A stretch of DNA of 64,000 nt, from NCBI GenBank assembly GCA_010093605.1, contig MU004197.1, positions 930,001 through 994,000 on the forward strand. Direction: 5' to 3'. A program made the translations under genes and the position numbers. Under the pieces are notes generated by a model that was not told where the DNA came from, searched no databases, and worked only from the letters and a program-made list of their open reading frames with translations. The stretch's first letter is position 1; every line of letters begins with the position of its first letter. The stretch is from Lophium mytilinum (taxonomy: Eukaryota). Shown here in pieces: positions 21,466 through 55,147 of the stretch.

Positions 21466-24400
21466 TGTAGAATGAGGGCGAAGTGTCTGTAGCAATGGAA
21501 ACACTGCGGCTAGATGCTAGCTGACAGAGTGCAGCAGCAGAGGGAGGGATGCGGCAATAGAAGAGGCGCAAGGGCGGAGCCGGGAGACGGTAGGTGCGGA
21601 TATGCAGGAGCGGCGTAGTGTGGAGAAGACTAAGTAGATGATGGACACAGCAAATATGCAAGATGGCGTGGGAGCAAAATGGTCATGAGGGAGTGAGAAT
21701 CTGCAGCAGAGCTTGTCTGGGCCCGGGGGCGTGGTTGGAGAGATAGCATACATATAGATGAGCAAGCGATACAGTACAGTCTGTGTGGGAGAGACGTGGG
21801 GAGGGTAGTCCTCGAGCTAGGGCAGCAGCGGTGCACGGGGATCGAGGCCCTTTCGCGCTGCGTCAGGGCGCGCTCGGACATGCAGCAGGTGCAGAAGGCT
21901 GCGCAAGGCGCTCGGCATGCTGTCGACGCTCTGGGAAAGGCACGGGGAGAGGACGGGGCTGCGGGTGCGCCTTCAGATCCTCGCCGTGGTCCATCATCGG
22001 GAGCGCTGGGCGGCGATATGCACTGGGGGCCCTTGCGCCAGTCTCGCTGAACGGGCCGGGAAGGTGGCTTGCGGCCTGCGCGGGCCTGTCCAGGGCGAGT
22101 CTCAGAGCAGCCGCCGTCTGTGGTCGCTGTGTGGGGGTGCAGAGCACGTCGCCAGCCGTGGCGCCCAACCACGCTGAGGGCGCAGAATCCGCATCGTAGC
22201 AGCCAGGATTTGGTCGCCGACGTCAAAGCCCGTCTGGCACACTCACTCGAACTTCTCATGAGTCTATTGTTGTGCGGCAGCGAGGAGTACCTCTTGGCGT
22301 TGTGAGAAATCGGGTAGACTTCGGTGACGAGCATCGAAATGCTTTGGAGGCGTACAACAGGCCTCCACCACGCACGCCCCGAGCGGCCGGGGAGCAGGGA
22401 GACGACCGCACTGACTAAGGCCAGCAACGCCGCCAGCACGAGGGAGAGAAAGGGAGAGGAGAGTAGAGGCTGCCACTCTCTTACCGCGCCTCCCTCGCCC
22501 GCCGTGGGATTGGGTCGTGACGATCTCCTCGGTGCGTCGAGGGGTGGAGGAATCCCGGCATCGCATCGCTGGCGGCTTGCCGTCCTCGCACAGCGGCCGC
22601 CAGGCCTTCATAGGTCGACGGGTGCATGCGATACAATGCGGAGGTGCACGTGGGCGAGTTGCGAGAAACGCGCCCACAGAGGGAGCAGTTGGGCGCTCGC
22701 TTGGGGCTCCAAGAGAGGAAGCCCACCGTTCGGGCTTCAGGCTTCATCCGCGGTTGGCGATGGTCGTGGTGTGGTGGTGCGTTCGTCCTTGGAGTTAGGT
22801 AATGGGGTGGATGAAGACGGCTTCCGGCGCGAGGCCCAAAGGGGACATGCCCGGTCTGGCGATGCACTCCGGCACGGATCGTGGCCAATTCATCCTCTCC
22901 ACAACGCCCAGCTCCCCGGGAACCCATCCAGGCGGCTCTCGCGGCCAAAACAAACTCTGCCTCTTGCCCTGCCACGATGCACACCGAAGTCGCTGAGATG
23001 CAAACACCCGCTCTCAACGTACCTGCAGCCCCCTCACACTGCCCTCGATGCCTCTGATGCCTCCTCACGATGCCCCTCCCTTGACTCCTGCGGCGCGGAC
23101 CGGGCGGACGCGTAGAGGCAGCGGGTCCAGGCCCACTCGCGGCCGCAAATGGGCGGCACGCTGGCAAGTGTCGTGGGCCGGAAGGGCTGCATCTGTGTCT
23201 CTTGCCTCTTGTCGTAGGTCGGAGGTGAGGTTGTGTGGACGACCTGCGCTTCTTGCGCAGGCATCATCCCACAGCACTGGTAAGGTTCCGGGGCGCGGCC
23301 TGGGGACGGCCAGGGCCGCGCTCTGACTGCTCTACTATCTGTGCAGCTTGAATAATGCGATTTAGTTGTGCGAATCTTGCTGCCACGGCCTATCAGCGCC
23401 GTCCCTCTCGCCCCAAGTGCGCTGCGGAGCCAGCCGAGTCCCGCGCACTCGGGACGTCACGAGAGACATACAGCTGCCGTGCCGCCAACCTCTCTGCGTG
23501 CCGGCGCCCTCGCCCGGCTTCTCCAGATGGTGCATGTCGTGAGAGAGACCAAACACCTTGGTTGCCAGTCCGATAGGCGCTGGGGAGCGGGCTCCCACCG
23601 CCATCGAGCACCCTGTTTGTGGCCTCCCTGGCGCCTCGGACGCCTGTCACTTCCGCCTCTATCAGCCCCCTCTTTTGGCACAGTGGCCTCGCACCCCGGC
23701 TGATTGCTGTCCCCACTGCCGCTTCAGCTAGAGATTGTGGTCTTGCATGCCTCTGTCTAGGTCGCTTTGCCCTGCCGCCACCGTCATGGCGACGTTGACC
23801 CATTGCAGCGGAGTGGTAGCGCCTCTAGATCCACGGGGCTTCGCTCCCATCTTGCTTGCCTCATCCGCGAGCTCGGAGTCGGCCGGACATCCCGATGCCA
23901 AGTATAGCATCCAGTTTCCTAGCTTCTCATCTCTCTCCCGGCCGTACAACTCGTCGGGGCTCTAGAAAGAAATCTCCTCGTGCGCCGTAATGAGCATTTA
24001 TTTTGCGTATCCTTACAAAGTCTGTCACTGTCTGGTCATATCCTTGTAGAGCGTCTATCAAGCAGTGGCCAGTGCCATCTCATTGACGCCTCACGCTGTA
24101 CCGGGGAGAGGTAGCTTCTCGAACGCGTTCCTTCCGGTCCCTGTTCCTAGAAAAACAAACACAGCGCGATCCTGCAGTGTCTTCGCGTAGATCGTGAAGA
24201 CATGGTTTCAACCCCTCGTACCCGTCTGCCCCGAAGGCAAGATCCATGACTCTCATCCAAGACGGGCAACATGATGGCTTGGAATGGAAATGGCTGCAGC
24301 AGACTCTGACTGCAGTCAGGCCTCGCCAAAGGGGGAATGGCCGTGCTATCAGGGCCATGGCCTTGTCACGGAGAGCCTTGCCGTTTTTCTAGATCTTGAC

Positions 24401-33802: not shown

Positions 33803-36210
33803 ATGGCGTCGCATAGTGCTCTCCTGAGCCCCGGTGACGCGTTGCCCATTAGACCTCATGCCAAAGGACTCCGCCGCCGCAAGACTAAGCACGCTTTCCA
33901 GGCCAAAACTTCAACCCAACAGCTGGAGAGAGCCAAGGACGACGACGAGTATGGCGTCGCCCTGCAGGTACGCTTTCTTCCCAAAATATTCCCTCCCCAT
34001 CAACCCAGTTCTGACGAAGTCGTGGATAGACTCTTTTCATAGGCCTGTCGGCAAACGACGGAGTAGGCGGGACTGTAGATGCCGGATTCGCATCCCATGA
34101 TGGCACATACAGTATCGATTTTGCTGTTCAAACACTAGGTGGAAAGGGTGGCTTCGGTGGTACTGACAGTGGGACGGATACGCCTGGACGCTCAGGCACA
34201 GACTCCCCCTCCGGCATACTTACACCATCGGGAATGCGGACGCCTCTCCTTCCCGAAGAACGAGCAGGAGTTCTTGCCGACTACTTTGTCGAAAAGATCC
34301 GGGAATACCAGCAGGACCATCTATACAAGTTCGTGGGGGCTGGATTGACCAAGAAGGTCGTTCAAATGAGTCCGAATCTGCCAGCACGACTTTGGTGGGA
34401 GCTGGATATTGTCCCGCTAATTTTCGAAACTGGACTCGAAGAACCTTTCCCTAAAGCAGCCCGACACGGTATCGCAGTTGACGAAGAGGCAGACTCGATG
34501 GCCAGAAAATGTCTAATGTACGGAATCCTACCCAATTGCCTATATTCAATTACTTACGATCTACAGGTTCTTCGGACCCAGCCAACAGCCTCGCGTGCAA
34601 GTAGGCTACCGTAACGAGGTCGAGGTCGATTCTGGAGGCCACGCCCAGATCACTTGTCTCGATCAGTACCCTGAGACAGTCGGCGACGCAACTTGGAAAG
34701 CGACCATGAAATACGTCCAGTCTCTGAAAGACAACAACGTGAGGATTGCGTTCTTCAACAGCACGCCGCAGGGTGGTGGGGTCGCATTAATGAGACATGC
34801 TCTCATTAGGCTTCTTCGTCTCGTGGGCGTCGACGCAGCTTGGTAAGTCCCAGCAAACCGTCTTTTCATGCATGTTGCTAACAGCGAAATAGGTACGTGC
34901 CGAAACCAAAGCCCGAGGTCTTCCGAATCACCAAGAACAACCACAACATCCTTCAAGGCGTTGCCGATCCTAATCTGCGGTTGACCGACTACCAAATGAA
35001 AGTACTAGACGATTGGTGCTTGCAAAACGCGGAGAGATTCTGGATCTCAGAAGGAGGCGCGCTGGCTCCTCGATCCCAAGGAGGTGCAGATGTTATCATC
35101 GTAGACGACCCCCAATTGCCAAGCTTGGTCCAGATCGCGAAGAAACTCGACCCAACACGACCCGTTATCTTTCGATCGCATATTCAAGTCCGCGCCGATC
35201 TTGCGGATCAACCCGGCACTCCCACGTCGGAAGTCTGGAACTGGGTATGGAAGAACGTTAAAGACGCCGATGTCTTCGTCAGCCACCCGGTCCGAGAGTT
35301 CATTCCTAGTATCGTCAACTTCGACAGGGTCGGCTATATGCCCGCCACCACCGACTGGCTTGATGGCTTGAACAAAGAGATGAGCGATTGGGACACCTCG
35401 TACTACCTGCACGAATTCAACTCCGAGTGCTTCCGCCAACGAATGGACCGGCTCGAGTTCCCAGCCCGCGACTACATCGTGCAGATCGCCCGCTTCGACC
35501 CGGCCAAAGGCATCCCCGACGTGCTCGAATCCTACGCTAAACTCCGCCGGGAGTACATGAGCGAGATGGACAAGGCCGACATCCCGCAGCTCGTCGTCGC
35601 GGGCCACGGCGCCATCGACGACCCGGACGCGACCCTAATCTTCGACCAAACCCTCAGCCTCCTCGAGACCAAGTACCCAGACATCCGCCACGACGTCGTC
35701 GTCATGCGCCTCGGCCCCACGGACCAGACCCTCAACGCCCTCATGTCCAACGCCAAAGTCGCGCTCCAGCTCTCCACGCGCGAGGGCTTCGAGGTCAAGG
35801 TCTCCGAGGCGCTGCACAAGGGCATCCCCGTCATCGCGACCCGCGCTGGCGGCATCCCGCTTCAAGTGGAGCATGAGAAGAGCGGGTACCTCGTCGAGCC
35901 CGGCGATAGCGATGCCGTCGCGAAGCATCTCTATCATCTGTTCACGGATGTCCCCGCGTACGATGATATGAGCGAGTACGCGGCGTTGCATGTCAGCGAC
36001 GAGGTCAGCACGGTGGGCAATGCGCTTGCGTGGCTGTATCTGGCGGACACGTTGGCGAAGGGAGAGAAGATCGAGCCGAAGAGTGCGTGGATCAATGACT
36101 TGGCGCGGGAGAAGGCGGGGTTGCCGTATACGAAGGGGGAGAGTAGGCTGCCGAGAGTGGAGGGGTTGGATCTGGAGACGCCGGTTGTGGCAAAGGAGCC
36201 GGAGGCTTAG
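33803..36210 (+). CDS. Trehalose synthase/phosphorylase (ccg-9-like, GT4 glycosyltransferase)
   Basis: IAFFNSTPQGGGVALMRHALIR, VFRITKNNHNILQG, IVQIARFDPAKGIPDV and ALQLSTREGFEVKVSEALHKG. Three introns. Confidence 0.93.
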
Positions 36211-37424
36211 TGAGTGACGAGGCGGATTTCGGGATGAGGTGTTGTGGTGGAAGAGGTTCTTAAGGGTGCATATGGGGAAAGGGGATTCATGATTATGACG
36301 GTGACTTTTCTACTCAAGACTAATTACAAATAAAGTCGGGCAAGAGACGGGATTGTACAGTACACAATATACTCATTTTGGGCTTTTGAAGCGTTAAAAA
36401 GTGTTTTCTTTTACTCATCGATGTACTGAGGTGTACTTATCCTGGTCGCATCGCGATCGGGACATAGAGAACTTCACACAATGTCAACAGGCCTGATAGA
36501 GATAGCTTGGACTTCGCTTGAATTACTCTGGATCGTTTACTACACCTCAACCGAGATGCTTCGAAGGGCGCCAAGGGGGCAGAAGTAGGGGAGGCCGAAG
36601 CTAGCCTGATTAATAGCGTGGTAAGCTTTACATCACATCTTAAGTAGGTATAGCATATTAAGGCGCCTCTAACGATAGTGAATGGTTGCTAATAGGATAT
36701 CTCAAGCGACGATTTGGATCAAGGTGAGTCTTATATTCGTTCTTTTTGCTCCAATGCTATAAAGCCTAGTAGACCTCCCATATACTCAAACAGTTCTCAG
36801 CGCGGCCGCGAATATTACCCGTACTCTAGTTCCACCACTCTATTGCGATTCAAATCTCTACAAATCTTTAGAAAGGTACAAAAAATAGCAAAAGCGACGT
36901 ATAAAGATAATGTATAACGAGACGACAAACATGGATGAGACACTACCACACTGCCAACGACGCGTAATGGAGGGCTTCTTCATGAAGGGCTCCTTCACAA
37001 AGGGGTCTGATTCGACCTTGACACCTTTCTCTCTGTGCATTTCCCAGAAATTGAAAACCTCCTTCCTCTTCACCATAGCCTACTCCGGTAAAGTATGGGC
37101 CATCATATATGCCGCATCCGGTGCATGTGCTCGAGCAAGCTCGAAGAGTGTTAACGCCGGGGGCCGATTGGAAGTTTCCGAGGTCAGCGCCTGCTGCATT
37201 GCTTGATCAAGACCGGTGGAGTAGTCTAGGCTGATGATAGGCTTCGCCTTTCTCGCCGTATTTCTTTTCGCTTGCTTCTTTGCAGATAGGCTTGCTTCAA
37301 TATCCGAGAAATCCGTGAACTTGGAGCTGAATAGTTCGCATGGGGGCTGGCCGTGGGCGAGGAAGTGTACTACTGCGCCTAGAGCCCATATATCGAACTC
37401 TTCTCTTGAGCGAAGCGGTTCTGG

Positions 37425-37573
37425 GCCCAGCGCTCTTTGGGGTAGGTGACAGCAAACTTGATCGTGTTGGAGGTCTGTCCCTCATCCAGCTTGGAGTTGT
37501 AGCGCTGGTTCGCCTCGATGCGGAGAACGTCGACGGGCAGGTAAGTGTCCTTGCCCTTGGTCATCTTGACAAG
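37425..37573 (-). other. Captured Argonaute fragment A (PAZ end/linker 2), 149 bp
   Basis: Encodes LVKMTKGKDTYLPVDVLRIEANQRYNSKLDEGQTSNTIKFAVTYPKERW. Inserted between the two prolines of the kinase Y(Q)P|PE motif. Confidence 0.88.
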
Positions 37574-37690
37574 GGGCTAGTACGTGTAGGTACCTGGGCC
37601 CCGCTCGTATTCGTCATTCTCGGTGGTTTGGAGGTGAGCGAGTCCGGAGTCGCCCAGGTTAAGATTAGGGTAACCGCCTTCCACGCTGCT

Positions 37691-40600
37691 CAGGGCTGCT
37701 ATCCAACCAACCAACCAATCCGAGTCGTTCAGATTGGTTGGATTGGCGTATTAGTCAGCGAGGGTCAATATTAGTTGGTTGGTTAGACCAATATTAGCCA
37801 ATATTAGCAATTAGCCAATTAGTATAAGGTTAGTATATAATAGTAATACTTAGCATGGTATTAAGTTTAAGTATTAATTTATCTACCTATTTCTAAACAG
37901 CCTACCTATTTTATAATAGCCTACCCGTTTTTAGCAGCCTACCTATTTTTAGTAGCCTACCTGTTTTTAGTAGCCTTAGTCCTTACTCTAACTTAATATA
38001 TTATTATACGTTTACTTTAATTACTATCCTCTAACTAATCCGCCGTCTAGTATATTAATAAGATTGTCTCTCTCCTATAAAGATAATAAGATAGTTACTC
38101 CTATAATATTAATATCTAGTACTAATCTATTTAGAGCCTATAATAGGCCTATTTAGTTAAAATTATATTTATTACTAGTACTTATAGCTAGAATAAATAG
38201 AAGGTTAAGAGCTATATAGGTAAGATAAGAGTATTTAGAAAGTCTTAATACCTAATACTTAATTAGATTAGTAACGCGGCGGTTATTAGTATACGCACCG
38301 CGGGCAATCTAGTAAGTATACTCGTCCTCTCTAACTTATAATAAAGCTATACTTATAGCTATAACTATAAAGAAGGTTATAAAGAAGTTATTCTTATTAA
38401 GAGCTAATACCTTTACTTACTATTGCGCCTCTACCTTACTAAGTTTAATAATATAGTATTTATATTTTAAATTCTATAGCCTCTATATATTCTTCTTTAC
38501 TTCCCTAATCTAATTAGCCTTACTAGCCTAATACTTCTCTATAAAGTCCTATTTATATGCTAGATATAGTACTATAGCTATAATATAGGTAGCCGTGCGG
38601 TTAGTAAGGTTATAATACTTATTAAGTTTTATCCAGGCAAGGTTAATGCTATATTAAAAGTGCTCCTCTAGGTAGTAAGTATATAGAACCTTAAACTTTT
38701 TAAGATAGAAGAGAAGATTCTTATATATAGGTAGAACCTTCTAAAGAGAGCCTTTCTTTTCTTAAGAGATTCTACCTTCTAGGCGCTTTATAGCTATCTT
38801 AAAGGGCTTTAGAAGCTGCAGATACTCTATAATTACTACCTAGTCCTTATCTATAAGGGTATTCTTTATAATAGCTAGCTACTTATAACTTCTAGTAGGC
38901 GTAGGTTAGGTGCTACTACAGGTCTACTTTATAATATAGGTATACTACTTAGCTACCTCCTCTTCTATAACTATATTAAGATATAGCTATATCTAAATAC
39001 TGCGTTCTATTATAGACTTAATGCTATTCTATTGCGTTGCTACTAGCTTAATAGAATAATATACCTTAGTCTTATTTACTTCCTTCTAAAGCTAAATAAG
39101 ATATTATATGCGCAGCTCTAAATTAAATAGCTATATTATAATAAACTATAGCTTTATAATTAGCCCTAGCTTTTACTAGACTTATAGCTTTAATACTATA
39201 TCCTTATCTAGAAGGTTGTATTTATAGTCCTATAAAAACTCCCCTTTCTAATTACTAGTAAAGAGCGCTCTAATAATAAGGTTAATAACGTAGCTAAGGT
39301 AGCGTAGTTGCTATTTATATTTATTAACTCTAAAGTCTTCTATTTCTTATAGAAATATATTAAGGTTATTAGCGTTATTAGCTATAATATAGCCTACCTA
39401 CTTACTATTAGCTGCATGTACGCGTAATAAAATAAGAAGGCTAAGTAATAAAATAAGAAGGCTAAGTAATAAAATAGGAAGGCTATTATATACTACCTAT
39501 TTATAGCAAGACTAATATATACTACCTATTATAGTAAGACTAATATATATAACCTATTTATAGTAAGACTATTATATACTACCTATTCTATATATACTAT
39601 CTATACTATATATACTATCTATTCTATATATACTATCTATTCTATATATACTACCTATTTATAAATAGGTAGTATATAGCAGCCTTACTATAAACGGGTT
39701 ATATATAATAGTCTTTCTATTATATTACTTAGCCCTTCTATTTTATTATATTAACGCAGCTAGCAGTAAGCTTACCTACTCTTATCTAATTTTAAACTAT
39801 TTAAATATCTATACTACTACCTCTTTAATATAGGTTCTACGGTGCCGGTCTATTATTTCTAGTAGGGCTAGTATAATAGAGTAGTATTAATAGACAGCGT
39901 CTATAAAATAGTAATTAATTCCTAGTAGCGCTTTATAATTGCGTGCAGTCTAAAGATCTATAGAGAAGTAAAGCTTTCTAGGCGCTACTAAAAGGAGTTA
40001 TTTAATAGTTTTCTAATAGCGGTAATACTTAGATAGTATATAGGTTTATAGTATTATATAGTATAGTAAGTAATTACTAATAGTAATAGCCTAATTAAGA
40101 TAGGTAAGAAGAGCACGGAGGTGCGGGCTTTTAATAGTAATAAGAGGAATCTTAGTATATATAACCCATTAAATTAGCAGCTAGAAAAAGTGCGTAGGCG
40201 TAAAGGAATAAATAATAGTATTAATTTGCGCTTACTTATAAGAAATACTAGTAGAGAGCTAGAGCTACTTAATAATACTAAGCTATTTTAGCTTCTTAGT
40301 GGCGTATTTACTAATAAAGATCTAATAACTTTTAGACAGGTACTTAGCGTAGTTATTAGTTTCTAGGGCAGTATAGATATAGCCCTCTTATGCTTTTAAT
40401 ATATAGTATAGCTTATAATACTAGAATCTTTTACCTATCTCCTTCTTTTATATATTATAGCTATGCTTCTATACCTCTCCTATTCTATTATACTGCGAGC
40501 GCGTAGGTTTATAATAGCTAAGAAGACGGCCCTAGTTAATATTATTATAGGCGTTTAAGTATTGCGGCTGCTCGGCTACCTTATATTATTACTACTTGCG

Positions 40601-41197
40601 GAATACTTATATAAGTATTAGATTATCTTTGCTAGGGTTATATAATAATATAACTATAGATGTAACTATAGATGCAACTATAGATATAATAGAAGTAGAA
40701 GTAGTAGAAGTAGTAGAAGTGGCAGAAGTATAAGAGGTACATTAATTACATTACAGCGGTATAGTAGATGTAATAGTTATAATAGATATAATAGAGTTAA
40801 TAATAAGATTATAATATATTATATACAGCGGCATTAAGGCGTGCAGCATTAAGGTAGCTATCTTAAAAATTCATTATAGGAGGCTATTAGCGCAGGCTAA
40901 GCTAAAAGGGAAGTATATATAAAATAGGAAGGCTATAGTTTATAAAAAGGCTGCAGGTTTATAGTAAGACTATAAGATTATAGCAAGACTATAGTATTAA
41001 AGTTATAGGTAGCCCGCGCTAAGGCGGTATATAGTTACGTGGTAATATATTAGCGTATTAGCTAATACTCTAACTAATTAGAGCCCTCTATATTAGTTGG
41101 TTGGCCTATTTTCTAAAGAGAGATTGGTTAGATTGGTTGCTTATTAATTAACCAATATTGGCCAATCGCCAATATAGTTGGTTGGATAGCAGCCCTG
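37691..41197 (-). mobile_element. hAT-superfamily DNA transposon, heavily RIP-mutated, 3507 bp
   Basis: Perfect 21-bp TIRs CAGGGCTGCTATCCAACCAAC and an 8-bp TSD ACGCTGCT (37683-37690 and 41198-41205). The interior is very AT- and TpA-rich with no long ORFs. A minus-strand relic IKY*VLRLSKYSYLTYIALNLLFILAIS near 38170-38270 fits the hAT dimerisation domain. Confidence 0.92.
39421..39680. repeat. Short tandem repeats inside the transposon
   Basis: AATAAAATAAGAAGGCTAAGT about 2.5 times, followed by several TATACTAC/TCTATT-type units. Confidence 0.7.
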
Positions 41198-41315
41198 ACG
41201 CTGCTTGGAACAACAAGAAGGCTTCCGGGCTCTATTTCGTCGTGGATGATGGAGTGTATGTCATGAAGCCACGTGAGGGCCTCTGTCTCTTGAAGGAAAA
41301 GTGCCATATTAGGGC

Positions 41316-41467
41316 CTGGGAGACAACACCAAAGCGGCAGTCACAGGACTTCTTGATACGACGGTACACGTCGATATCCTTGTCGTTGACGATGAACACA
41401 AGAAGCTGCGGGCGAGAGGTGAACTTGTTCCCATTCGCCTGCCAAACGGAGTTGATTATCTCACCAC
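41316..41467 (-). other. Captured Argonaute fragment B (MID domain), 152 bp
   Basis: Encodes GEIINSVWQANGNKFTSRPQLLVFIVNDKDIDVYRRIKKSCDCRFGVVSQ. Inserted between kinase codons ITE and ALIWH. Confidence 0.9.
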
Positions 41468-42293
41468 CTCGGTGATTTGCATTCCGTTTTTGGCCCATAG
41501 CCTGTGAAACATGCTAAGATCGCCACCTTCACAATATTCGAACGCCGACCTTACAGTGGATGGTCCTGGGTTAGGAAGTGTGCCAAGAAACTCCAGAATC
41601 GTCGAGGAGCCTTGCGCTGCTGATATCATCTTGATTTCTTGTATAGCTTCTTCGTCGTAACCACGTTTCATTTTCTTCATGATAATTCCCGGTGCGACTC
41701 CTTGTGCTTGATGTGGCAGATCAGTCCCTACCCCCCGGTATCCAAGGGATGAGACGCTCAGTTCGTATCAAATTCGTCCAGTGAAAAGACGCTCCTATCA
41801 TTGCTCAAGGGCCAACGCAAGAAAGCGAAGAGAGTAAATCGAGAAGCGTTCGGAAATGAGAACATATTGCCCATATTCTCAATCCTGAAAGGAGGTTGGG
41901 GCTTCGTGAGGTGCAAGAGGTAGGTGTCTTGGGACGAGTGATACAAGGTCTTGGTTCGTACAAACTCCGATAGAGGATATTCGGTACTACATGCTGTCGT
42001 ACGCCCGTACACGATGAGTGTGTGGGAGATAGTGATGTTGTTGTGCGAGAAGTTGTGGTGTGGTGTTGTTATGGAGGTCTTGGCGAGTAAGCTATGTGTA
42101 GTTACCAGAACGCGAAGCGGCTTTTTGAGTACCATTCTCACCACGATGTGGCAGTATGCTAGTGGTTATGATGGTACGAAGCGTGGCAGCAGTTCGCTGC
42201 TCCACGCCTAGCTCGTTCGCGCCTCCTGCTTCGCTAGGGAGCTCGTGGTGTGCGATGAGGTCGTCTGTGAGTTGGAGAGAAGAATAATTGGCA

Positions 42294-42440
42294 GATCATC
42301 GAAGTTGTCGCGAACTTAGGATTCACTCGGGCAAGGGCAGTACCAGTAGCCCTAGATGTAGAACTGCCTAGCTTGGCGTTGATCTTCATGCAGACATTCG
42401 ATGCATACTGGGAGTCCAACTTGACGCACTGGGCCGAGTG
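42294..42440 (-). other. Captured Argonaute fragment C (MID to PIWI start), about 145-150 bp
   Basis: Encodes SAQCVKLDSQYASNVCMKINAKLGSSTSRATGTALARVNPKFATTSMI, including the Argonaute hallmark QYxxNVxMKINAKLG. It lies about 70 bp downstream of the intact kinase stop. Ends are approximate. Confidence 0.9.
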
Positions 42441-42509
42441 TGCAAAGTGATTGGAGAACTCCAAAAGAGTCGGCTATAATTCTCAAAAGTGTTGCCAGAC
42501 GCTCTCCCT

Positions 42510-43715
42510 CTATGCGAAGGGATCATCTTCCGTTTTGGCGTCCGGAAACAACTCCCATAGGTTGAATTCGTGATGACCGGGTACTTTTCTCTTGATTGCC
42601 CAGTCTTCAAGGGGCTTTGCCGCCATTCTAGCTTTAGCAGGCGCGAACGGCCTGACAAGCTGCAAGAGCTGAGACGCGGTGGGCCTGTCTCGGGCATTCA
42701 AGTGACATGCTGATTGTATGGCGCGACAAAGAGCGTCGCAGTGCAGGCGGCCTGGCACACCGCAAATATGTTTGGCCTTCCTCGGTGCCAGATTCTTCCT
42801 CTCCTTCTTTTCTTCAATCGGCATGTCGGTGTCGAGACGGCCCAAAGAGCAAGGGGATTCCCCATGGGCAAGGTAGTGGATAACGCTACCCACAGCCCAA
42901 ACGTCTGATGCTTTCGTTGACCGAAATGGCTCGGGAGGCTGGTAGCTCCAAGTGCCTGCTCCATACTCTTCTTTATCTCGCTCTTCGCTCTGGAACTCAG
43001 CAAGCCCAAAGTCTGCATATTTTATCTCTGGATAGCCACCCGTTGTGGTTGAAGCGATGAGGATGTTGGCAGGTTTGATGTCTCGATGGACTATGTTACA
43101 CTCTTCGTGGAGGTGGACCAAACCCTCGGCTAGTTGCTTGAATATGTGCCACAAGAGAGCGTCCGTCAGAGGCTTCTTGTGTTCTTGCCACGCATTGTAG
43201 TACTCGCTGAGATCACTCTCGCGGCAGTACTCGAACACAGGCCGTAGTTTGAGTGGCTCTGGGGGGTTTGGAAGGTTGCCCAGGTAGCTGAGGATGCGTG
43301 GGTGGCCTCCCGCGGCCTTGAACATTTCTATCTCATGTTTGGTCTCTTCGTCCACATCATGGAACATTTGTTTCATGATATAGTACCGGTGTGATTTCTT
43401 GTGTTGGATGAGGTTTATCGCGCCTTGCCCTCCGCGAGTGATCTCTCGGTATCCCCAATTTGTAGTGAGCGTGTCCTCTTTGAAAGTTACATTCTCGTAC
43501 GAGGGAACAAGCCCGGTCTCGGCGTTGTCGATTGAACTGTTGGGAGTGTCTTTAATGTCACTATTCTTGTCGAGAGCGTCCTCAAGGCTGGACACTTCAT
43601 CGGAAGAGGTATCTATGTTGGTCCATTCGTCTGAAATGTCCTCGATCCAAGCACATTGCGTCGAAGTTTCGTTAACGATACTCCACTGCTCGAGAGTGTC
43701 GTTGAATGTAGTCAT
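42510..43715 (-). CDS. Intronless Ser/Thr protein kinase, divergent and loosely NIMA/Nek-like, 401 aa
   Basis: RGGQG loop, YIMK, alphaC E, FEYC, LLWHIFKQLAEGLVHLH, HRDIKPAN, ADFG, YQPPE, SDVWAVG and RPTA. Acidic N-terminal extension. Confidence 0.9.
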   Translation of the reverse strand: MTTFNDTLEQWSIVNETSTQCAWIEDISDEWTNIDTSSDEVSSLEDALDKNSDIKDTPNSSIDNAETGLVPSYENVTFKEDTLTTNWGYREITRGGQGAINLIQHKKSHRYYIMKQMFHDVDEETKHEIEMFKAAGGHPRILSYLGNLPNPPEPLKLRPVFEYCRESDLSEYYNAWQEHKKPLTDALLWHIFKQLAEGLVHLHEECNIVHRDIKPANILIASTTTGGYPEIKYADFGLAEFQSEERDKEEYGAGTWSYQPPEPFRSTKASDVWAVGSVIHYLAHGESPCSLGRLDTDMPIEEKKERKNLAPRKAKHICGVPGRLHCDALCRAIQSACHLNARDRPTASQLLQLVRPFAPAKARMAAKPLEDWAIKRKVPGHHEFNLWELFPDAKTEDDPFA

Positions 43716-46700
43716 TGCGTCGGTGGCCGTGGTTTCAGTGCTGCTTGCTTGTCAAGTGTTGGTATTAAAGGTGGGCTTGAAGTTGTTAGAAGTGTGTATG
43801 AAGAAGGCAGACGCAGACGCAACGTAAGTTATTAAGTGCAAATTCTACGGCCACAATTGTGCATAAGTGGCGTGGTTCTGAGGTCTGCACAATGTGGTAG
43901 CGATATACTGATCCATGGGTGGTTGGTTGTTCCAGAACGAAAGCCGTCACGTGTCCATTACCAAAGCCAGAGCGAGGGCCTAATAAGACCACGAACACGA
44001 CAATAATCCATCTCTTTCCGAAGACCAGCACGCAGAGGAGCATCTGCTTATGTACAGCACTGGGTCATAGGCTTGAGCGCATCGATATCTCAATGCTAGG
44101 GCTCTAACCCTGCCTGTTTGACACCACCGTGAGGAATGGCCCGGCTAGCAGGTGGACCGTCAGTCAAAAGGTACCCTGTTTGCCGCTGTGTCGATCTTTA
44201 CATCGTATTCGGAGGTTTAACGCCCCTAGAGGCGCCCCAAGCAGTGGCAAGCAATATGGAGGTTTAGAGGAAGAGTGTTGAAATAGCGGACATGATTCAA
44301 ACCACAGGCGAAAGAGTTCTGATGTACAGTGACAGGCCACAAGTCTGGGCACATTAGCTTGACACCGCATGGAGTTCCCCCACAGGATTTCGAAGATCCA
44401 AGGGTGATGTCGAGGTTCAAGCAGTGTAGATTGGACTACCTCTGGACTAATTGGCTGCTCAACAGCCAGGGTATCCCCGACAGTGGTGTCGAGTGAGCAA
44501 GTTGGAGCCAAGCTGTAATGAGTATATGTGCCCAGACTTGTGGCTTAGTACTGTAGCGTGTTGTGACCAAGAGGAGAGATAAAGAGGATGAACAACAGTT
44601 TTTATTAAGACCTAAAAGAGAGGAGTATGCCATTCGACCAGCAAATTAGACATGAGGTTGGTATCCAATAAAATCCGCACCATTTCGTTATTCTTGGCCA
44701 TAGCGCGCGACCACTACCCACTGCGTTTCTAGAGTGCACTTAAATGGTCTTAGCTCTGCTAAAATCTAGCGATCGATGCGTTATGATCATCAAGCCGTAA
44801 AGTCGTCCTTTGATAAAAGGCGTTGATGTCGCTGAGGGCTATAACAACAGAAATAGTGTTTGGAAGGTAGGTTTGTCGTGAACAGTCTGAGCTGTGCGCA
44901 CTGGTTGTCGGTGTGCGGCGAGTTTGGGATATGAGGTTCGACCATGCAGACGTCGGAAAGTATGTGTGACGAGAGCAAGCAAAGGTGATTTGGGCTTCCA
45001 TTTAATGCGGTCAGATAGTAGTAGATTTGTCGTTCCCGTCCACATGGTCGTTGAGGGTGTTCGAGAATGCGCTACGGCCACGAGGTATCATTTGGAGCAG
45101 ATGCCTGACCCTCTAAAGTCGACCAGTAATTTAAGGATATCCCGAAGTGCGGGGCCCTCAAACAACCACAGACATTGCTTAGGGTTATTTCGCATGCCGT
45201 GGACATGCGTATCCGACTTGCACAACTCGATCTGCAACTTCGTGCCGACCATATGCAGGGCAAGCGTCGATGCCATGAACATGGTATATGCACCCACAAA
45301 CTGCATACACTTCAACGATACGAATACACATGAATAATAGACTCCGAGTATCTGCGATGAAGCTAACAGAAGTAGGATGATGGCGGAAAGGAGCAAAATG
45401 GAATGGTGAGTTCTACTCCCTCGGATATGAGAGAAGGGCAACGAAGAAGGAGGAACAGCGGGGCCTAAAAACGGATAAAGGAAAACGCAGAACAGCTTGA
45501 GATTACAAAGAATAGAGACAGGACGAAGCATGAGGACTACGAAGGAAGGGGGCCAAGTAAGGCAACAGTGTAGTTGATATACGCTTGTGCACGGCTGCCG
45601 AGACCGAACGTTGGACAAGGAAGGGCCGGAGTGCGCGAATGATCAGTCAGAGGCGGATAGCGTCATGACTGAGGCTTGCACCAAGTGTGGGTAAGGCGCA
45701 GATGGCATTCCGGCTTCCGCAAGTTGAGCGAGGTGAACGAACATTGAGGAACCGGGTAACGCAAAAGTGACTCTGACAGGCCAGCCACGCGTTTTCCCAT
45801 TCAAGGCTTTGGGTAAGGCGCAGTACCATGCTAGGAGTAACTACCAATCCAAACATGGAAGATCTCGGGCGGGAATAGACGAGTGACAGGATATGGACTG
45901 CGTTCGGTGATGGGAGCTAGACTGGGGGCCGCATCGGTGAGGATTCGCAGCAAGCCCACCCTGATGGCGGTGCTTGCGAAGCCACACCTGGACTGCGATT
46001 CATACGGTCAGCAGACGATGATGGTTTGGTTAACGTTCGCAGGCAGGGGGCTCGCCATGTCTTGGCAGCGGTTGAGAAAGCGATTGGACACCGGGGAGAT
46101 TCCTGACGCCAGAAGGGAGTCAGCGAGTCGGCCACATGGTAAACATAGATACGAACATGTGGCTAAGTTGCCGGCTTTAGAACAGAAACGTTAGTCGGGG
46201 TAATGTTGGGTCCGCGGATGGTAGCCGGCATTCTAGCTCTACGGCGCGGTCAAGGCAAAAAGCTGGGGTAGCACAGGAAGAACTCGATAGGATCGAAGCC
46301 AGCATTCCCGTGGGGGGACACAGAGAGGCGGCCAGGGAACGATGATGCCACAACGGTATACGCACTTGCATCCGTACACGTCTATGATGGTGGAGGTGGT
46401 GAAAACCATCAGCCCTAGACAAGCGTACTTCGTAACACGCCCCTGGTTTCTCGGCAGTCGGCAGGCACACCGCTGTTCGACTTGACCCTTCTCACGAACC
46501 AACCTCGACGGCATGGCCGCCCTTCACGCCGGACACGCGGTTGCATGGCGGTGACCTCTTGCCACGCGATGAGATGCCAACCTGCATTCAGCCCTATGTC
46601 AGCCCTATTCGTCATCGTCTGAGGGCCCCGATTCCCCCCGTGTGGCTTAAACCACGCACCCCCATTGTTCTTAGTTCCCCTCTACCCGTCGTGCTGTCTT

Positions 46701-49619: not shown

Positions 49620-51900
49620 CTAGACTTAAAGCTTAGGCGCACGTAGATGCCACTGCTATAGTTCCATTCTTGCTCGTTCGACGCCACTGTACGGAGTCCT
49701 CTCGCTACTGGGTGGCTATTTGGTCAAAATGATAGCCAATCTATACCGCGCCAACAGTGACATTCATCAAGGACATGAAATCTCTAAGCTTGGCCACAAA
49801 CTCGTTCTTACTACCCATAGGGCTACGCTTTTGCTTCCTTGAAGCCACTGTACGAAGTAGCTCAGCCCATTGGTGGCCGGTTAGTTAAGAGGTAGCCCAG
49901 ATTACAACCCATCAACCTTGACATCCTATACGGACATTGGTTCCTAATGTTTTGGGCCCTGAATCGTATATTTTAAGGCTAGGCCTATACTTTTGCCGGT
50001 TCCACACCGCTGTCAGGAGTTGCTCAACTCGCCGGTAGCTAGTTAATTAATAAGTAGACTAGATTACGACCCAGCAGCCTTGACATCCTACACAGGCGCC
50101 AAAGTCTATTATTTTGGGCCCTGTATCGTATACTTTAAGGCCAGTCCGCTACTTTTGCCGGTTCGATACCGCTGTAAGGAGTTGCTTAGCTCGCTGGTGG
50201 CTAGTCGGTCAAGAGGTAGTCTAGATTACAGCCCATCAGCCTTAACATCCTACACGGACGTGAAAACGTATTACCTTAGGTCTAACTCGTATATCATAAG
50301 GCTACGATCTCGCTCTTATTAGTTTGATACCCCTATAAGGAGTACCTTAGCCAATCGATGAACAGTCCGTTAAAAGGTAGTCCAATTGACACAGTCTTGA
50401 TCCCGATATCCTAACCAAACATAAAAGATGCGAATGTAGATAGTGGTATGGATATAGTAACGCTAGGCCTTTATTCTTTCTCTCTTAACACTACTTTAAC
50501 ACTACTATAGGGGGTAGCCTAATGAGGTAGTATGCCCTGGTTAAGAGGCACCCTAGTTTATACTGCAGTAACCTTGATATACCCCTAGAGGACGTGAAAG
50601 CTATAGGCTTTAGGCCTAAATTAGATATAGCAACGCTTAGGTTTGGTTCCTACTCCTTAAATACTGCTGTAAGGAGTAGCCTAACTAGCTAAAGACCGGC
50701 CAGTCAAAATGTAGCTCATTTCATACTACAGGGACGACAATATCCTTTAAGAACATAAAGATGCAAGCTTGGACAAGGCTTCAGATATCACAGCCCTAGA
50801 GTTTCCTTTTTTCTCGCTCGACACCACCGTGTAGGGTAGCTCAGCCAGCTAACCGCCGGTCGGTTAAAAGGTAACTTAATATATACCTCGTTAGCCTTGG
50901 CATCTACTAAGAATATAAAAGCTACAAGCTTAGGGACTAAGTTAGATATGGCAGCGCTAGTAACTTACTATTGCTCGCCCGATACTACCGTGAGGAGTAG
51001 CTCAACTAGAAAGTAGCCGGCTGGCCAATAGGTGGTCTATCTTCCCACGTGTTGACCTTAGCATTATGCTGCAGTAGCTATTACTATAACCACCCAGATC
51101 TAGCACTGCTTGAGAGCCCCTCTAGAAGCTGAACACCACTGTCAGGAGTACCTCCGCCATCAAATAGCCGGCACGTCAAAACGTAGTTTACTATTCGCTG
51201 TATGGCCTTGACATTGGGTTGGAGTGGCTCCAGCACTAAGCCACAACTGTGGGCACACGGACATCACTGCTTGAATACCGCTTTTGCAAGCTGGACGCCA
51301 CTGTCAGGGGCAGCCCCTTTGCGAAGATACCTCTCTATCAATAGGAAGCTCATTTCGTAGTGTCTAAAACTTGACAAGAGGCCTACATTGTCCTCACCGC
51401 ACAGAGGCACCCCTTGCAGTGGCAATCGAGTGTGTACAAAGGTATGCCTTGTTACTGTACAGCCACACGGATGTTAGCATTGCTCGAGTGCTGCTCTTGA
51501 AGCTGCTTACCACTGTCCGGAGAAGCCTGGCCAGCAAGTAGCCATATAGTCAAAAGGTGGTCTAACATCTACTGCGTGAGCCTTGACGTTACCCTAAAGC
51601 AGCTATAAGATTAGCTATACGGATGTTAGCACTGCGCAAGTGACGCTTTGAAAGCTGCTTACCACTGTAAGGAGTAGCTCTGCTAGTCGGTAGCTAAGTG
51701 GCCAAAAGACAATCTAATATCTACTGCTAGATCCTTGACGTTGCGCTGGAGTAGCTACAACTCCAGCCACACGGATGCTGGCAGGCTTGAGTGCTACTTT
51801 GCAAGCGATACAACACTGTCAGGAGTAGCCTAACTAGCAGGTACCCAGTCAGGTAAAAGGCAGTCTAATGTATACTGTGTACAGCTTGACGTCGCACCTA
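49620..51900. repeat. Degenerate tandem array of 14 units, mostly 151-162 bp
   Basis: The anchor (a)ccactgt(a/c)aggagtagc recurs at 49687, 49848, 50010, 50172, 50333, 50505, 50667, 50827, 50988, 51139, 51301, 51513, 51665 and 51816. Secondary motifs tcaaaaggtagtct and gccttgacat also recur. Confidence 0.85.
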
Positions 51901-53630: not shown

Positions 53631-54986
53631 ATGGCAAGCAAGAACGGGTACAACGTACCGCGCCCGAAACGCGCCGGCGATCAGTTCACGCGCACCCACA
53701 ACGGCGACGACAGCGGCCACTCGACCAAGAAAGCTCGATTCGACTACCGCAATCCCTCCACTCTCGCCGCCGACGCCCCTGACGACGATCCCATCCTTGA
53801 CCTAGACGAAATCGGACGCGGCGGTGGAAAGAAGCGTAACGAGGTCATCGTTGGCGAAGATGATACCGACAGCGAAAATGAGAATTTCGATACGCGTGCA
53901 GATGACCGCGCCAAGGCAAAAGCTCGGGAGGAGGCTGAGGCAAATGAGGATGACTCGGATGAAGACATGTTCGGTGGGGCAGGTAGCAAGAAGGGCGACA
54001 AAGTCGTAGACCCGGCCAAGGAGGGAAAGCCGAAGAAGAGAGAAGTGAGGTTCTTAGATAACAACGATATCCTTGGCCAGGTTGAGGAGAGCAAGTCGGG
54101 AGGTCATGTTTCTGCCGACTTTTCGCTCAGTGGCAAGGCTCGGAAGCACGACGACAGCAGCAGCAGCGAGAGCGGGGACGACGAAGAGCGGGACCGAATT
54201 GGCAGCGACGTCGATAAAGAGGTCGGGGCCGGGGGGAAGAAGAAGCACGCTCCGAAGCTGGATGCCTTCAACATGAAGAATGAGGGCGAGGAGGGAAAAT
54301 TCGACGAGACCGGCAACTTTGTTAGAAACGCTGCGGACCCCCTCGCGGTTCATGACACTTGGCTGGACGGGATCTCGAAGAAGGACTTGAAGTCCGCACG
54401 CGAAGCACACGAAAAGCGGGAAGCTGAGCGACAGCAACGAGCCTTGGACGACGATGCTATTCTAACGAGTGATGTGCTATCTACTTTGATCGCATACATG
54501 GACAAAGGTGAGACGGTCTTGGAGTCTCTGCAGCGCCTTGGTAAGGGCAAGCCCAAGGAGAAGAAGAAGTACTGGCAGAGAAACAAACGCAAGAACGGGG
54601 AGGACATGGACCTCGACCCAGCCAAGACAGCCGCAGACCCCGCAGAGACGAAGCGTAAGGAGGCTGTCGAGGCCATTACAGGAGCGGCCGACCAGCTCTT
54701 CACGCGGGGCCAGACGGATGTGTACGACAATGAGCGGGAGAAGCTCATTCGGCAATACAAGAGGGAGACTGGCGAGGACTGGGTAGGACCCAGCCGCGCA
54801 GATGCGGAGAATGGCCCGGCGATGTGGGAGTACAGGTGGTCTAGTGCTCTGGGTGACGGAAAAATTCATGGCCCTTACGATGGACCGGCGATGGCGGGTT
54901 GGGACAATGGAGGCTTCTTCGGAGAGGGTGCGGAGTTCAGACGTGTTGGCCACTCGGGATGGTTGAGCGAGGTGGACTTTGAGTGA
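53631..54986 (+). CDS. LIN1: U5 snRNP GYF-domain protein Lin1/CD2BP2
   Basis: APKLDAFNMKNEGEEGKFDETGNFVR, ETVLESLQRLG, ITGAADQL and the C-terminal GYF-like WEYRW...HGPYDGPAMAGWDNGGFF. Divergent from UFD1. Confidence 0.88.
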   Translation: MASKNGYNVPRPKRAGDQFTRTHNGDDSGHSTKKARFDYRNPSTLAADAPDDDPILDLDEIGRGGGKKRNEVIVGEDDTDSENENFDTRADDRAKAKAREEAEANEDDSDEDMFGGAGSKKGDKVVDPAKEGKPKKREVRFLDNNDILGQVEESKSGGHVSADFSLSGKARKHDDSSSSESGDDEERDRIGSDVDKEVGAGGKKKHAPKLDAFNMKNEGEEGKFDETGNFVRNAADPLAVHDTWLDGISKKDLKSAREAHEKREAERQQRALDDDAILTSDVLSTLIAYMDKGETVLESLQRLGKGKPKEKKKYWQRNKRKNGEDMDLDPAKTAADPAETKRKEAVEAITGAADQLFTRGQTDVYDNEREKLIRQYKRETGEDWVGPSRADAENGPAMWEYRWSSALGDGKIHGPYDGPAMAGWDNGGFFGEGAEFRRVGHSGWLSEVDFE

Positions 54987-55147
54987 ATAGGGTAAGCTGC
55001 AAAGGTCTCCAGCTGCAAGCCATCGAAGGGGGGTGGGCTTTGTATGATTAGGGTAAGCTGTGAAAGTCTCCAGCTGCAAGCCATCGAAGGGGGGATGGAC
55101 TTTCTAGGGTTAGGGTAAGCTGGGAAAAATGTCTCCCGCTGCAAGCT
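54971..55147. repeat. 61-62 bp tandem repeat, about 3 copies, overlapping the LIN1 stop codon
   Basis: TAGGGTAAGCTG...GTCTCC.GCTGCAAGC starts at 54988, 55049 and 55111. Confidence 0.9.

What the first reader, a model, noticed from the sequence alone, without database searches (positions are those of the whole stretch)
37425..42440. Argonaute inserts share a ~150-bp size, tile the donor and have microhomology junctions
Insert lengths are 149, 152 and about 145-150 bp. Fragment C (SAQCVK...) starts within a few codons of where fragment B ends (...GVVSQ), so they look like adjacent tiles of one gene. Both intragenic inserts leave the host essentially undeleted. They have short shared sequence at both ends on the minus strand: GCCC for A and AGG for B. 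No TIRs or poly(A) tails are present. Inference: the size is close to nucleosome-protected DNA (about 147 bp). This suggests templated repair or capture of fixed-size DNA or cDNA pieces, loosely like spacer acquisition.
Basis: partly seen in the sequence, partly recalled or inferred. Interest (0 to 1): 0.75.

Follow-up and report, generated by a model that had tools for sequence, protein, structure and literature searches.

The report
Argonaute gene scraps pasted into dead kinase
Three equally long (about 150-base) copies of pieces of this fungus's own Argonaute gene have been pasted, apparently by DNA-break repair, into and beside a dead kinase gene; it is a scar rather than a working element, but its ruler-like regularity is unusual.

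Summary
The window is from the fungus Lophium mytilinum, named by protein-database hits. It carries three minus-strand copies of pieces of that fungus's own Argonaute gene. The gene's product (P0131, 939 aa) is intact and lies on another scaffold. Piece A is 37425-37573 (149 nt, aa 376-426). Piece B is 41315-41466 (152 nt, aa 554-604). Piece C is 42291-42437/42440 (147-150 nt, aa 608-656). A and B interrupt a degenerate kinase paralog without loss of host bases and are flanked by short repeats (GCCC, AGG). C lies about 70 nt after the stop codon of the intact neighbouring kinase. B and C are 5-8 nt apart in the donor. None of the pieces has TIRs, a poly(A) tail or a long target duplication. 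They differ from the donor protein at 6 of 151 residues and carry both Lophium-specific residues. They are therefore real, post-speciation copies and not assembly artefacts. The best reading is repair patches (captured or templated DNA) made in one episode. The nucleosome-length ruler is plausible but untested. The comparison with spacer acquisition has no support. Two features are new: the pieces lie in reverse donor order, and A and B sit 116-120 nt on either side of a RIP-degraded transposon. Donor DNA and sequencing reads could not be examined.

The parts
37425..37573 (-). Argonaute piece A, 149 nt, a copy of donor aa 376-426 (end of PAZ / start of linker 2). It is inserted between codons Y-Q(now TAG)-P and P-E-P of the dead kinase k2. 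The junction can slide by 1 nt either way, and GCCC is present on both sides.
41315..41466 (-). Argonaute piece B, 152 nt, a copy of donor aa 554-604 plus 1 nt (MID/PIWI boundary). It is inserted between I-T-E and A-L-I-W-H of k2. AGG is present on both sides (3-nt slide).
42291..42440 (-). Argonaute piece C, 147-150 nt, a copy of donor aa 608-656 (possibly from 2 nt of codon 607). It starts about 70 nt downstream of the k1 stop codon and lies upstream of the recognisable part of k2. Its boundaries are defined only by the match to the donor.
36990..41800 (-). Host: degenerate kinase paralog k2, 37-46% aa identity to k1. It carries 4 in-frame stops and 2 frameshifts, and has HDE in place of HRD and DSG in place of DFG. 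It is interrupted by B, the transposon and A.
   Evidence: no closer relative than k1 among 1.84 billion cluster representatives
37691..41197 (.). 3507-bp DNA transposon relic: 22-nt perfect terminal inverted repeats, 8-bp target duplication ACGCTGCT at 37683-37690 and 41198-41205, 30% GC, strong RIP indices. It is hAT-like by target-duplication length only. It sits 116-118 nt from A and 117-120 nt from B.
   Evidence: no transposase domain found in 31 of its 35 ORFs of at least 28 aa
42510..43715 (-). Intact protein kinase k1 (P0133, 401 aa; Pkinase E=8.6e-35), used as the guide for the uninterrupted host sequence.

Best explanation
The three stretches are non-functional repair scars. They are about 150-bp copies of pieces of the fungus's own, still intact Argonaute gene. 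They were pasted into chromosome breaks in and next to a dead kinase gene by end joining or short templated patching that used 2-4 nt of microhomology. They arose in the Lophium lineage after it split from Mytilinidion, most likely in one episode from one donor molecule, because B and C are neighbouring tiles and all three pieces have decayed to a similar degree.

Shown: the donor's identity and intactness, the sizes, the junctions, the preserved host sequence, the absence of transposon or retrocopy marks, and the lineage-specific residues.

Inferred: break repair as the route, a single episode, and a physical ruler for piece length. My odds for the ruler are roughly 35% nucleosome-length double-stranded DNA, 25% replicative template switching, 15% cDNA patch, and the rest unknown.
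For: The donor P0131 (939 aa, complete domain set) is in the same 90% cluster as the Mytilinidion ortholog and lies on a different scaffold of 2.85 Mb, against 1.6 Mb for the window's scaffold.

The pieces match the donor at 145 of 151 residues. At the 2 of 2 positions inside the pieces where the Lophium and Mytilinidion Argonautes differ, the pieces carry the Lophium residue. All 6 differences lie at positions where both species' proteins agree, which means decay of the copies after capture. Differences per piece are 1, 3 and 2, compatible with one age.

Removing 149 nt and 152 nt restores an uninterrupted alignment to k1 across both sites. The junction repeats are GCCC (or CC) and AGG. My own estimate of the joint chance of slides of at least 2 nt and at least 3 nt is about 0.008.

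There are no TIRs, no A-runs and no target duplication of 5 bp or more.

Size clustering has p about 0.0014 and adjacency p about 0.019.

Known biology supplies the route. In passages I read, yeast end joining captures nuclear, mitochondrial and Ty DNA of about 45-300 bp at breaks, with 60-150 bp pieces inserted most often (PMC11372161). Human class 2 templated sequence insertions have no target duplication and no poly(A), and show microhomology (PMC5110952).

The pieces are not RIP-mutated, although the neighbouring transposon is.
Against: Three separate breaks within about 1.05 kb of host sequence are needed, yet the host stretches between them kept their order and orientation.

All three pieces share one orientation (chance 1 in 4) and lie in exactly reversed donor order. 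Simple capture explains neither.

The near-perfect symmetry of A and B around the transposon is unexplained by this reading.

The empty-site reference is only a 37-46% identical paralog, not an ortholog or another strain.

No donor DNA was seen. Junction microhomology on the donor side, synonymous divergence and intron content are therefore unknown.
Confidence: 0.65

Rival explanations
1. One replicative repair event (break-induced or microhomology-mediated replication) copied the kinase region. The growing strand made three short excursions onto the Argonaute locus, each time leaving and returning at the same host nucleotides.
For: This explains the clustering within about 1 kb, the single donor, the single orientation, the collinear and undeleted host, and why each insert is bracketed by the same 3-4 nt (AGG, GCCC): departure and return at one microhomology. 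Reading the new minus strand 5' to 3', the visits run C, B, A. B stops 5-8 nt short of where C began, as would happen if the donor template were exposed or blocked in units of about 155-160 nt.
Against: No known ruler gives 147-152 nt per excursion. An exact return to the point of departure at two of two sites is not the rule for such events (recalled knowledge). Nothing in the window marks a long repair tract. C has no host reference.
Confidence: 0.2
2. The patches come from Argonaute mRNA: short cDNAs, or RNA used directly as a template, as proposed for human class 2 templated sequence insertions.
For: All pieces are pure coding sequence. Their orientation is sense with respect to the kinase transcription direction. 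In 5 of 26 related Argonaute loci an intron splits codon K568, which lies inside piece B, and B reads straight through that position. The outer ends of the set lie within 5 nt of intron positions seen in relatives: the start of A near the G374 or 377/378 introns (6 of 26 loci), and the end of C at the codon 656 intron (3 of 26 loci).
Against: The two closest relatives with genomic DNA in hand are intron-free over aa 15-939. These are L002 and L003, 84-85% identical to the Glonium protein, on contigs of 71 kb and 24 kb. The donor may therefore simply lack these introns. There is no poly(A). No reverse-transcriptase source was identified in the window.
Confidence: 0.15
3. The pieces are a functional RNAi-related record or trap. 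Argonaute-derived segments are kept in a transcribed pseudogene or 3' UTR to make small RNAs that tune Argonaute, or they were acquired in a spacer-like way.
For: The donor is an RNAi gene. The pieces have a fixed length. C lies about 70 nt after the k1 stop codon, so it may be transcribed. The public annotation placed open reading frames over A and B (P0132, P0004).
Against: There are no repeats, array or leader. There is only one donor. The pieces carry 6 amino-acid changes with no sign of constraint. The host is a decayed gene. No Rfam family matched in 36000-44000. No expression or small-RNA data were available.
Confidence: 0.03
4. Assembly or read-length artefact: 150-nt reads of the Argonaute gene were wrongly spliced into the consensus.
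For: The piece lengths equal a common short-read length.
Against: The pieces differ from the donor protein at 6 of 151 residues, so they are not misplaced donor reads. Two runs hold 98% of 267 sampled 31-mers of 41150-43800, which includes both junctions of B and of C. These runs are probably the source sample, so this is not independent support.
Confidence: 0.02
5. The pieces are whole exons moved by exon shuffling or by a gene-fragment-capturing transposon.
For: Exon-like length. Two outer ends lie near intron positions seen in relatives.
Against: In 0 of 26 related loci is there an intron at the B|C boundary (aa 605-607), at the end of A (426/427) or at the start of B (553/554). No TIRs or target duplications flank the pieces. 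The nearby transposon has its own tight 8-bp duplication and does not contain the pieces.
Confidence: 0.03

Closest known systems
Class 2 templated sequence insertions (human TSI/TSIP; Onozawa and Aplan, review PMC5110952, passages read)
   Same: A short patch copied from a distant locus that stays intact. No target duplication, no poly(A). Microhomology at the junctions. Read as a double-strand-break repair scar that became heritable.
   Different: Here three patches from one gene lie at three nearby sites, all about 150 nt, two of them neighbouring tiles, in reverse donor order. An RNA origin, as proposed for the human cases, is untested here.
End-joining capture of DNA fragments at breaks in yeast (Break-Ins study PMC11372161, passages read; Yu et al. 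2018 Nature on dna2 mutants, seen only as a citation and one sentence in PMC6943134)
   Same: Pieces of the nuclear genome of roughly 45-300 bp are inserted at a break by NHEJ, and 60-150 bp pieces insert most easily. The donors are not lost.
   Different: The yeast events are single or complex insertions at one induced break with a broad size range. Here the sizes are within 5 nt of each other and are spread over three sites. This is a natural, fixed germline event in a filamentous fungus.
Microhomology-mediated break-induced replication / fork stalling and template switching (recalled, not read here)
   Same: Several templated segments joined by 2-5 nt microhomologies in one event, with one strand orientation possible.
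   Different: Those events usually bring copy-number change and segments of very variable length taken from nearby sequence. Here the host is unchanged and the segments have unit length.
NUMTs and filler DNA at repair sites (recalled; mentioned in PMC11372161 and PMC5110952)
   Same: Foreign or ectopic DNA used as a patch, with no mobile-element hallmarks.
   Different: The donor is a single-copy nuclear gene, not organellar DNA.
CRISPR spacer acquisition
   Same: Fixed-length pieces taken from a donor nucleic acid.
   Different: No repeats, no array, no leader, no acquisition genes nearby. The pieces sit in a dead gene and decay.

Membership tests
Templated sequence insertion / break-repair patch (class 2) | The inserted sequence is a copy of a distant locus that remains intact | tested here: met
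   Donor P0131 is a full-length 939-aa Argonaute on another scaffold. Only its protein was seen, not its DNA.
Templated sequence insertion / break-repair patch (class 2) | No target-site duplication of 5 bp or more, no poly(A), no LINE-type target | tested here: met
   Flanking repeats are 2-4 nt (A) and 3 nt (B). The longest A-run is 3 or less.
Templated sequence insertion / break-repair patch (class 2) | End-joining marks at the junctions (microhomology, microdeletion, untemplated bases) | tested here: met
   Microhomology is present and there is no host deletion at A or B. C cannot be judged for lack of an empty site.
Templated sequence insertion / break-repair patch (class 2) | RNA-derived template | not testable with these tools
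   This needs the donor's exon-intron structure. Relatives are polymorphic for introns.
Transposon-mediated gene-fragment capture (Pack-type, Helitron, hAT transduplication) | The captured fragment lies between the element's termini and moves with them | tested here: not met
   No inverted termini at the piece ends. The hAT-like element's TIRs and 8-bp duplication exclude A and B, which lie 116-120 nt outside it.
Processed retrocopy (LINE-mediated) | 3' poly(A) and a flanking target duplication | tested here: not met
   Lengths are 147-152 nt. The start of B to the start of C is 159-162 nt. The start of A to the start of B is 531-534 nt, which is not a multiple unless introns intervene. No chromatin data.
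CRISPR-like spacer array | Spacers separated by a conserved direct repeat in an ordered array | tested here: not met
   Self-comparison of the window shows no repeat flanking the pieces.
hAT superfamily (for the transposon between A and B) | 8-bp target duplication and short TIRs (criteria recalled); hAT transposase | tested here: inconclusive
   An 8-bp duplication and 22-nt TIRs were found. No transposase domain was detectable in the RIP-degraded interior (31 of 35 ORFs scanned).

The most novel reading that the evidence does not exclude
The locus may record a single episode in which chromatin was cut into unit lengths and then misrepaired. Nucleosome-length (or Okazaki-unit) pieces of one gene, two of them neighbours on the donor, were pasted into three nearby accessible sites. 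Two of those sites lie mirror-symmetrically about 117 nt on either side of a hAT-type transposon. That would tie the breaks to transposase action, or to nucleosomes phased off the element's inverted ends. If so, it would be a natural, heritable example of nucleosome-ruler DNA capture in a fungal germline.
Probability: 0.2. Interest if true: 0.7.

Novelty: new variant of a known kind. Interest (0 to 1): 0.5.

Why it matters
Captured or templated patches at chromosome breaks are well known from induced breaks in yeast and from human polymorphisms. Natural, fixed examples in filamentous fungi are seldom described.

I found no paper describing several equal-length neighbouring tiles of one gene spread over nearby sites. 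Three full-text searches returned no such case in the titles and abstracts I read, and a fourth search returned no papers at all.

If the 150-nt unit reflects nucleosomes or Okazaki units, this locus gives a concrete, testable case of what supplies the patch DNA in vivo. If not, it remains a clean, well-delimited repair scar.

There is also a caution for annotation. Two public gene models here are kinase-Argonaute chimeras built on these scars.

Tried and rejected
Whole genome: none is held for this window.

As a result there is no independent read support, no donor nucleotide differences and no expression data. No RNA holder was listed.

Donor loss: one search listed no Lophium Argonaute, and I briefly considered that the donor had been lost. 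This was rejected when one search showed the Lophium protein hidden in the Mytilinidion protein's 90% cluster.

Empty-site ortholog of the host: the word-based search found nothing. phmmer over 1.84 billion representatives found 4 hits: the locus's own gene model, k1 at 41%, and two weak ones.

Other orphan domain pieces: a Pfam scan covered 150 of 789 window ORFs of at least 45 aa (33.3-49.3 kb). At E<=0.01 it found only the kinases, a trehalose-synthase-like gene and piece A. B and C themselves fall just above that cut (E 0.016 and 0.019), so sensitivity is about 1 in 3. I did not scan the other 639 ORFs.

hAT excision footprint as the source of A and B: rejected, because no 8-bp host duplication flanks them.

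In-situ remnants of an Argonaute gene: rejected, because the order is reversed and the host is collinear.

A first host reconstruction carried a 1-nt coordinate slip at the transposon end and was corrected.

Rfam: no match in 36000-44000.

Earlier notes of this scan: nothing on this genome and no look-alike stretch. The hits were unrelated.

Paper PMC6346745 is not held.
Full report
WHAT IS THERE. The stretch 36.9-43.8 kb holds two protein-kinase genes on the minus strand. k1 (42510-43715) is intact (Pkinase E=8.6e-35; it equals P0133, 401 aa). k2 (about 36990-41800) is a paralog, 37-46% identical to k1. k2 is dead: it has four in-frame stops and two frameshifts, HDE in place of HRD and DSG in place of DFG. 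Among 1.84 billion cluster representatives nothing is closer to it than k1.

k2 is broken by three insertions. The largest is a 3507-bp AT-rich block (37691-41197; 30% GC). It has 22-nt perfect terminal inverted repeats and an 8-bp target duplication, ACGCTGCT. Its RIP indices are extreme (TpA/ApT 1.70; (CpA+TpG)/(ApC+GpT) 0.34), whereas k1, k2 and the Argonaute pieces look normal. It is a RIP-degraded DNA transposon. I call it hAT-like only because of the 8-bp duplication, a recalled criterion. No transposase domain survives in the 31 of its 35 ORFs that I scanned.

THE THREE PIECES. The other two insertions in k2, plus a third stretch just after k1, are Argonaute coding sequence on the minus strand.
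- They weakly match PAZ (profile 83-122 of 123) and Piwi (profile 2-42 and 43-61).
- A word-based search with piece B returned a 131-aa hypothetical protein of Lophium mytilinum at 100% identity. This is the public gene model over this very spot. It also returned a 910-aa Mytilinidion resinicola Argonaute at 92%.
- A wider search listed no Lophium Argonaute, which suggested for a while that the donor had been lost.
- The cluster look-up corrected this. The Lophium protein P0131 (939 aa) sits in the same 90% cluster as the Mytilinidion protein and lies on another scaffold.
- Against P0131, A covers aa 376-426 (50/51 identical), B covers aa 554-604 (48/51) and C covers aa 608-656 (47/49). No further Argonaute-like stretch in the window reaches E<=0.1.

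BOUNDARIES. I used k1 as the guide for the host.
- The host reads Y-Q(now TAG)-P | P-E-P around A and I-T-E | A-L-I-W-H around B. k1 has YQPPEP and LTDALLWH at these places.
- Taking out 149 nt (37425-37573) and 152 nt (41315-41466), the transposon and one copy of its duplication lets k1 align straight across all three sites. Neither Argonaute insertion cost the host a single codon.
- C has no host reference. Its donor-matching part is 147-150 nt (42291-42437/42440) and begins about 70 nt after the k1 stop codon.
- None of the pieces has inverted ends or an A-run longer than 3.
- Three lengths within 5 nt of each other would arise with p about 0.0014 if lengths were uniform over 45-300 nt. A pair of pieces abutting within 8 nt on a 2.8-kb gene has p about 0.019.
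- In the donor, B ends at the first base of codon 605 and C starts at codon 607 or 608. This is a gap of 5-8 nt.

AGE AND REALITY.
- Within the pieces the Lophium and Mytilinidion Argonautes differ at two positions, and both pieces concerned carry the Lophium residue.
- The six residues at which the pieces differ from the donor are all positions where the two species' proteins agree. The copies were therefore made in the Lophium lineage and have since drifted.
- The inferred codon changes are four transitions and two transversions, which is not a RIP pattern.
- The counts of 1, 3 and 2 changes per piece are compatible with one age.
- These differences also rule out misplaced donor reads as an artefact.
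- Two runs hold 98% of the sampled words of 41150-43800, but they are probably the source sample.

ARE THE PIECES EXONS, OR FROM RNA? The donor's DNA was out of reach, so I looked at 47 metagenome loci that encode relatives. Twenty-six of them reach past aa 600.
- In 0 of 26 is there an intron at the B|C boundary, at the end of A or at the start of B. The pieces are therefore not exons.
- Some relatives do have introns at G374 or 377/378 (6 of 26, next to the start of A), at K568 (5 of 26, inside B) and in codon 656 (3 of 26, at the end of C).
- If the Lophium donor had the K568 intron, B would have to come from spliced RNA.
- However, the closest relatives with genomic DNA have no intron at all over aa 15-939. 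These are L002 and L003, 84-85% identical to the Glonium protein, on contigs of 71 kb and 24 kb.
- The question of DNA versus cDNA origin stays open.

HOW IT MOST LIKELY AROSE. The anatomy is that of a break-repair patch: a copy of a distant locus that stays intact, no target duplication, no poly(A), 2-4 nt microhomology and an untouched host. This matches human class 2 templated sequence insertions (PMC5110952, passages read). It also matches end-joining capture of 45-300-bp DNA at yeast breaks, where 60-150 bp pieces insert most readily (PMC11372161, passages read).

I commit to this reading at about 0.65. The neighbouring tiles and the equal decay point to one episode and one donor molecule.

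The tight 147-152-nt length calls for a ruler. Nucleosome-length DNA fits, with 159-162 nt from the start of B to the start of C. Short fungal nucleosome repeats are recalled knowledge, not checked here. An Okazaki-unit template or another ruler fits as well.

Simple capture does not explain why three breaks in 1.05 kb left the host in order. Nor does it explain why all pieces point the same way, or why they lie in reverse donor order (C, B, A). A single replicative repair tract with three microhomology-guided excursions explains these features better. It also explains why each insert is bracketed by the same few bases. It offers no ruler, however. I give it about 0.2.

AN UNEXPLAINED SYMMETRY. 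A ends 116-118 nt from one end of the transposon and B starts 117-120 nt from the other. The element therefore sits within 2 nt of the centre of the 226-nt host stretch between them. The two arms are unrelated in sequence (local alignment scores 8 and 7, against a shuffle mean of 9.5). Post hoc, the chance is about 2-3%. The symmetry may mean that the breaks were linked to transposase action, or to nucleosomes phased off the inverted ends. It may also be coincidence.

WHAT IS NOT SUPPORTED. Nothing resembles a spacer array: there are no repeats, no leader and no ordered growth. With one donor, no bias toward RNAi genes can be claimed. No function is indicated. The host is a pseudogene and the pieces decay. 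The two public gene models that read through A and B (P0132, P0004) are chimeras built on the scars.

LIMITS.
- No whole genome was held.
- The one read-laying run was lost to a filter.
- Only 150 of 789 window ORFs were scanned for other orphan domains, with about 1-in-3 sensitivity.
- The genome-wide frequency, the donor's nucleotide sequence and expression all remain to be examined.

Noticed in passing
window 37574-37690 and 41198-41314: Argonaute pieces A and B lie mirror-symmetrically, 116-118 nt and 117-120 nt from the two ends of the RIP-degraded transposon. The element sits within 2 nt of the centre of the 226-nt host stretch between them. The two arms are unrelated in sequence.
   Followed up: partly
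window 37691-41197: A 3507-bp DNA transposon relic: 22-nt perfect TIRs, 8-bp target duplication ACGCTGCT, 30% GC, strong RIP indices. The first ~90 nt at the left end, as read, still look GC-normal. No transposase domain is detectable.
   Followed up: partly
window 41235-41767 and 37083-37560 (minus strand): Two public gene models of this fungus (P0004, 131 aa; P0132, 143 aa) are kinase-Argonaute chimeras predicted across pieces B and A. They are very likely annotation artefacts on a pseudogene.
   Followed up: partly
window 42450-42454 and 42287-42291 (minus strand): A 5-nt direct repeat, CCAAT, lies 10 nt before the start of piece C and again at its end, 163 nt apart. If this marks the true junction, C carries 9-12 nt of untemplated or unknown filler at its 5' side. 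The repeat is easily chance (roughly 0.2).
   Followed up: no
window 34517-36207 (+): A trehalose-synthase-like glycosyltransferase gene (TreT_GT1 plus Glycos_transf_1), apparently in two exons, converges on the 3' end of the dead kinase.
   Followed up: no
loci L007, L010, L012, L017, L022, L028 (Argonaute relatives): Intron content of this Argonaute family varies sharply among close relatives. Loci 92-94% identical to Alternaria proteins carry either five introns (L012) or one (L017). Recurrent positions are G374, about 488-490, K568, about 651/656 and about 745.
   Followed up: partly
window 49880-50255, 51460-51892, 54971-55146: Short tandem or dispersed direct repeats (73-85% identical, 110-220 nt) are seen in the self-comparison of the window.
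   Followed up: no
window 22001-24000: A local GC peak (0.64 against about 0.52-0.55 around it).
   Followed up: no
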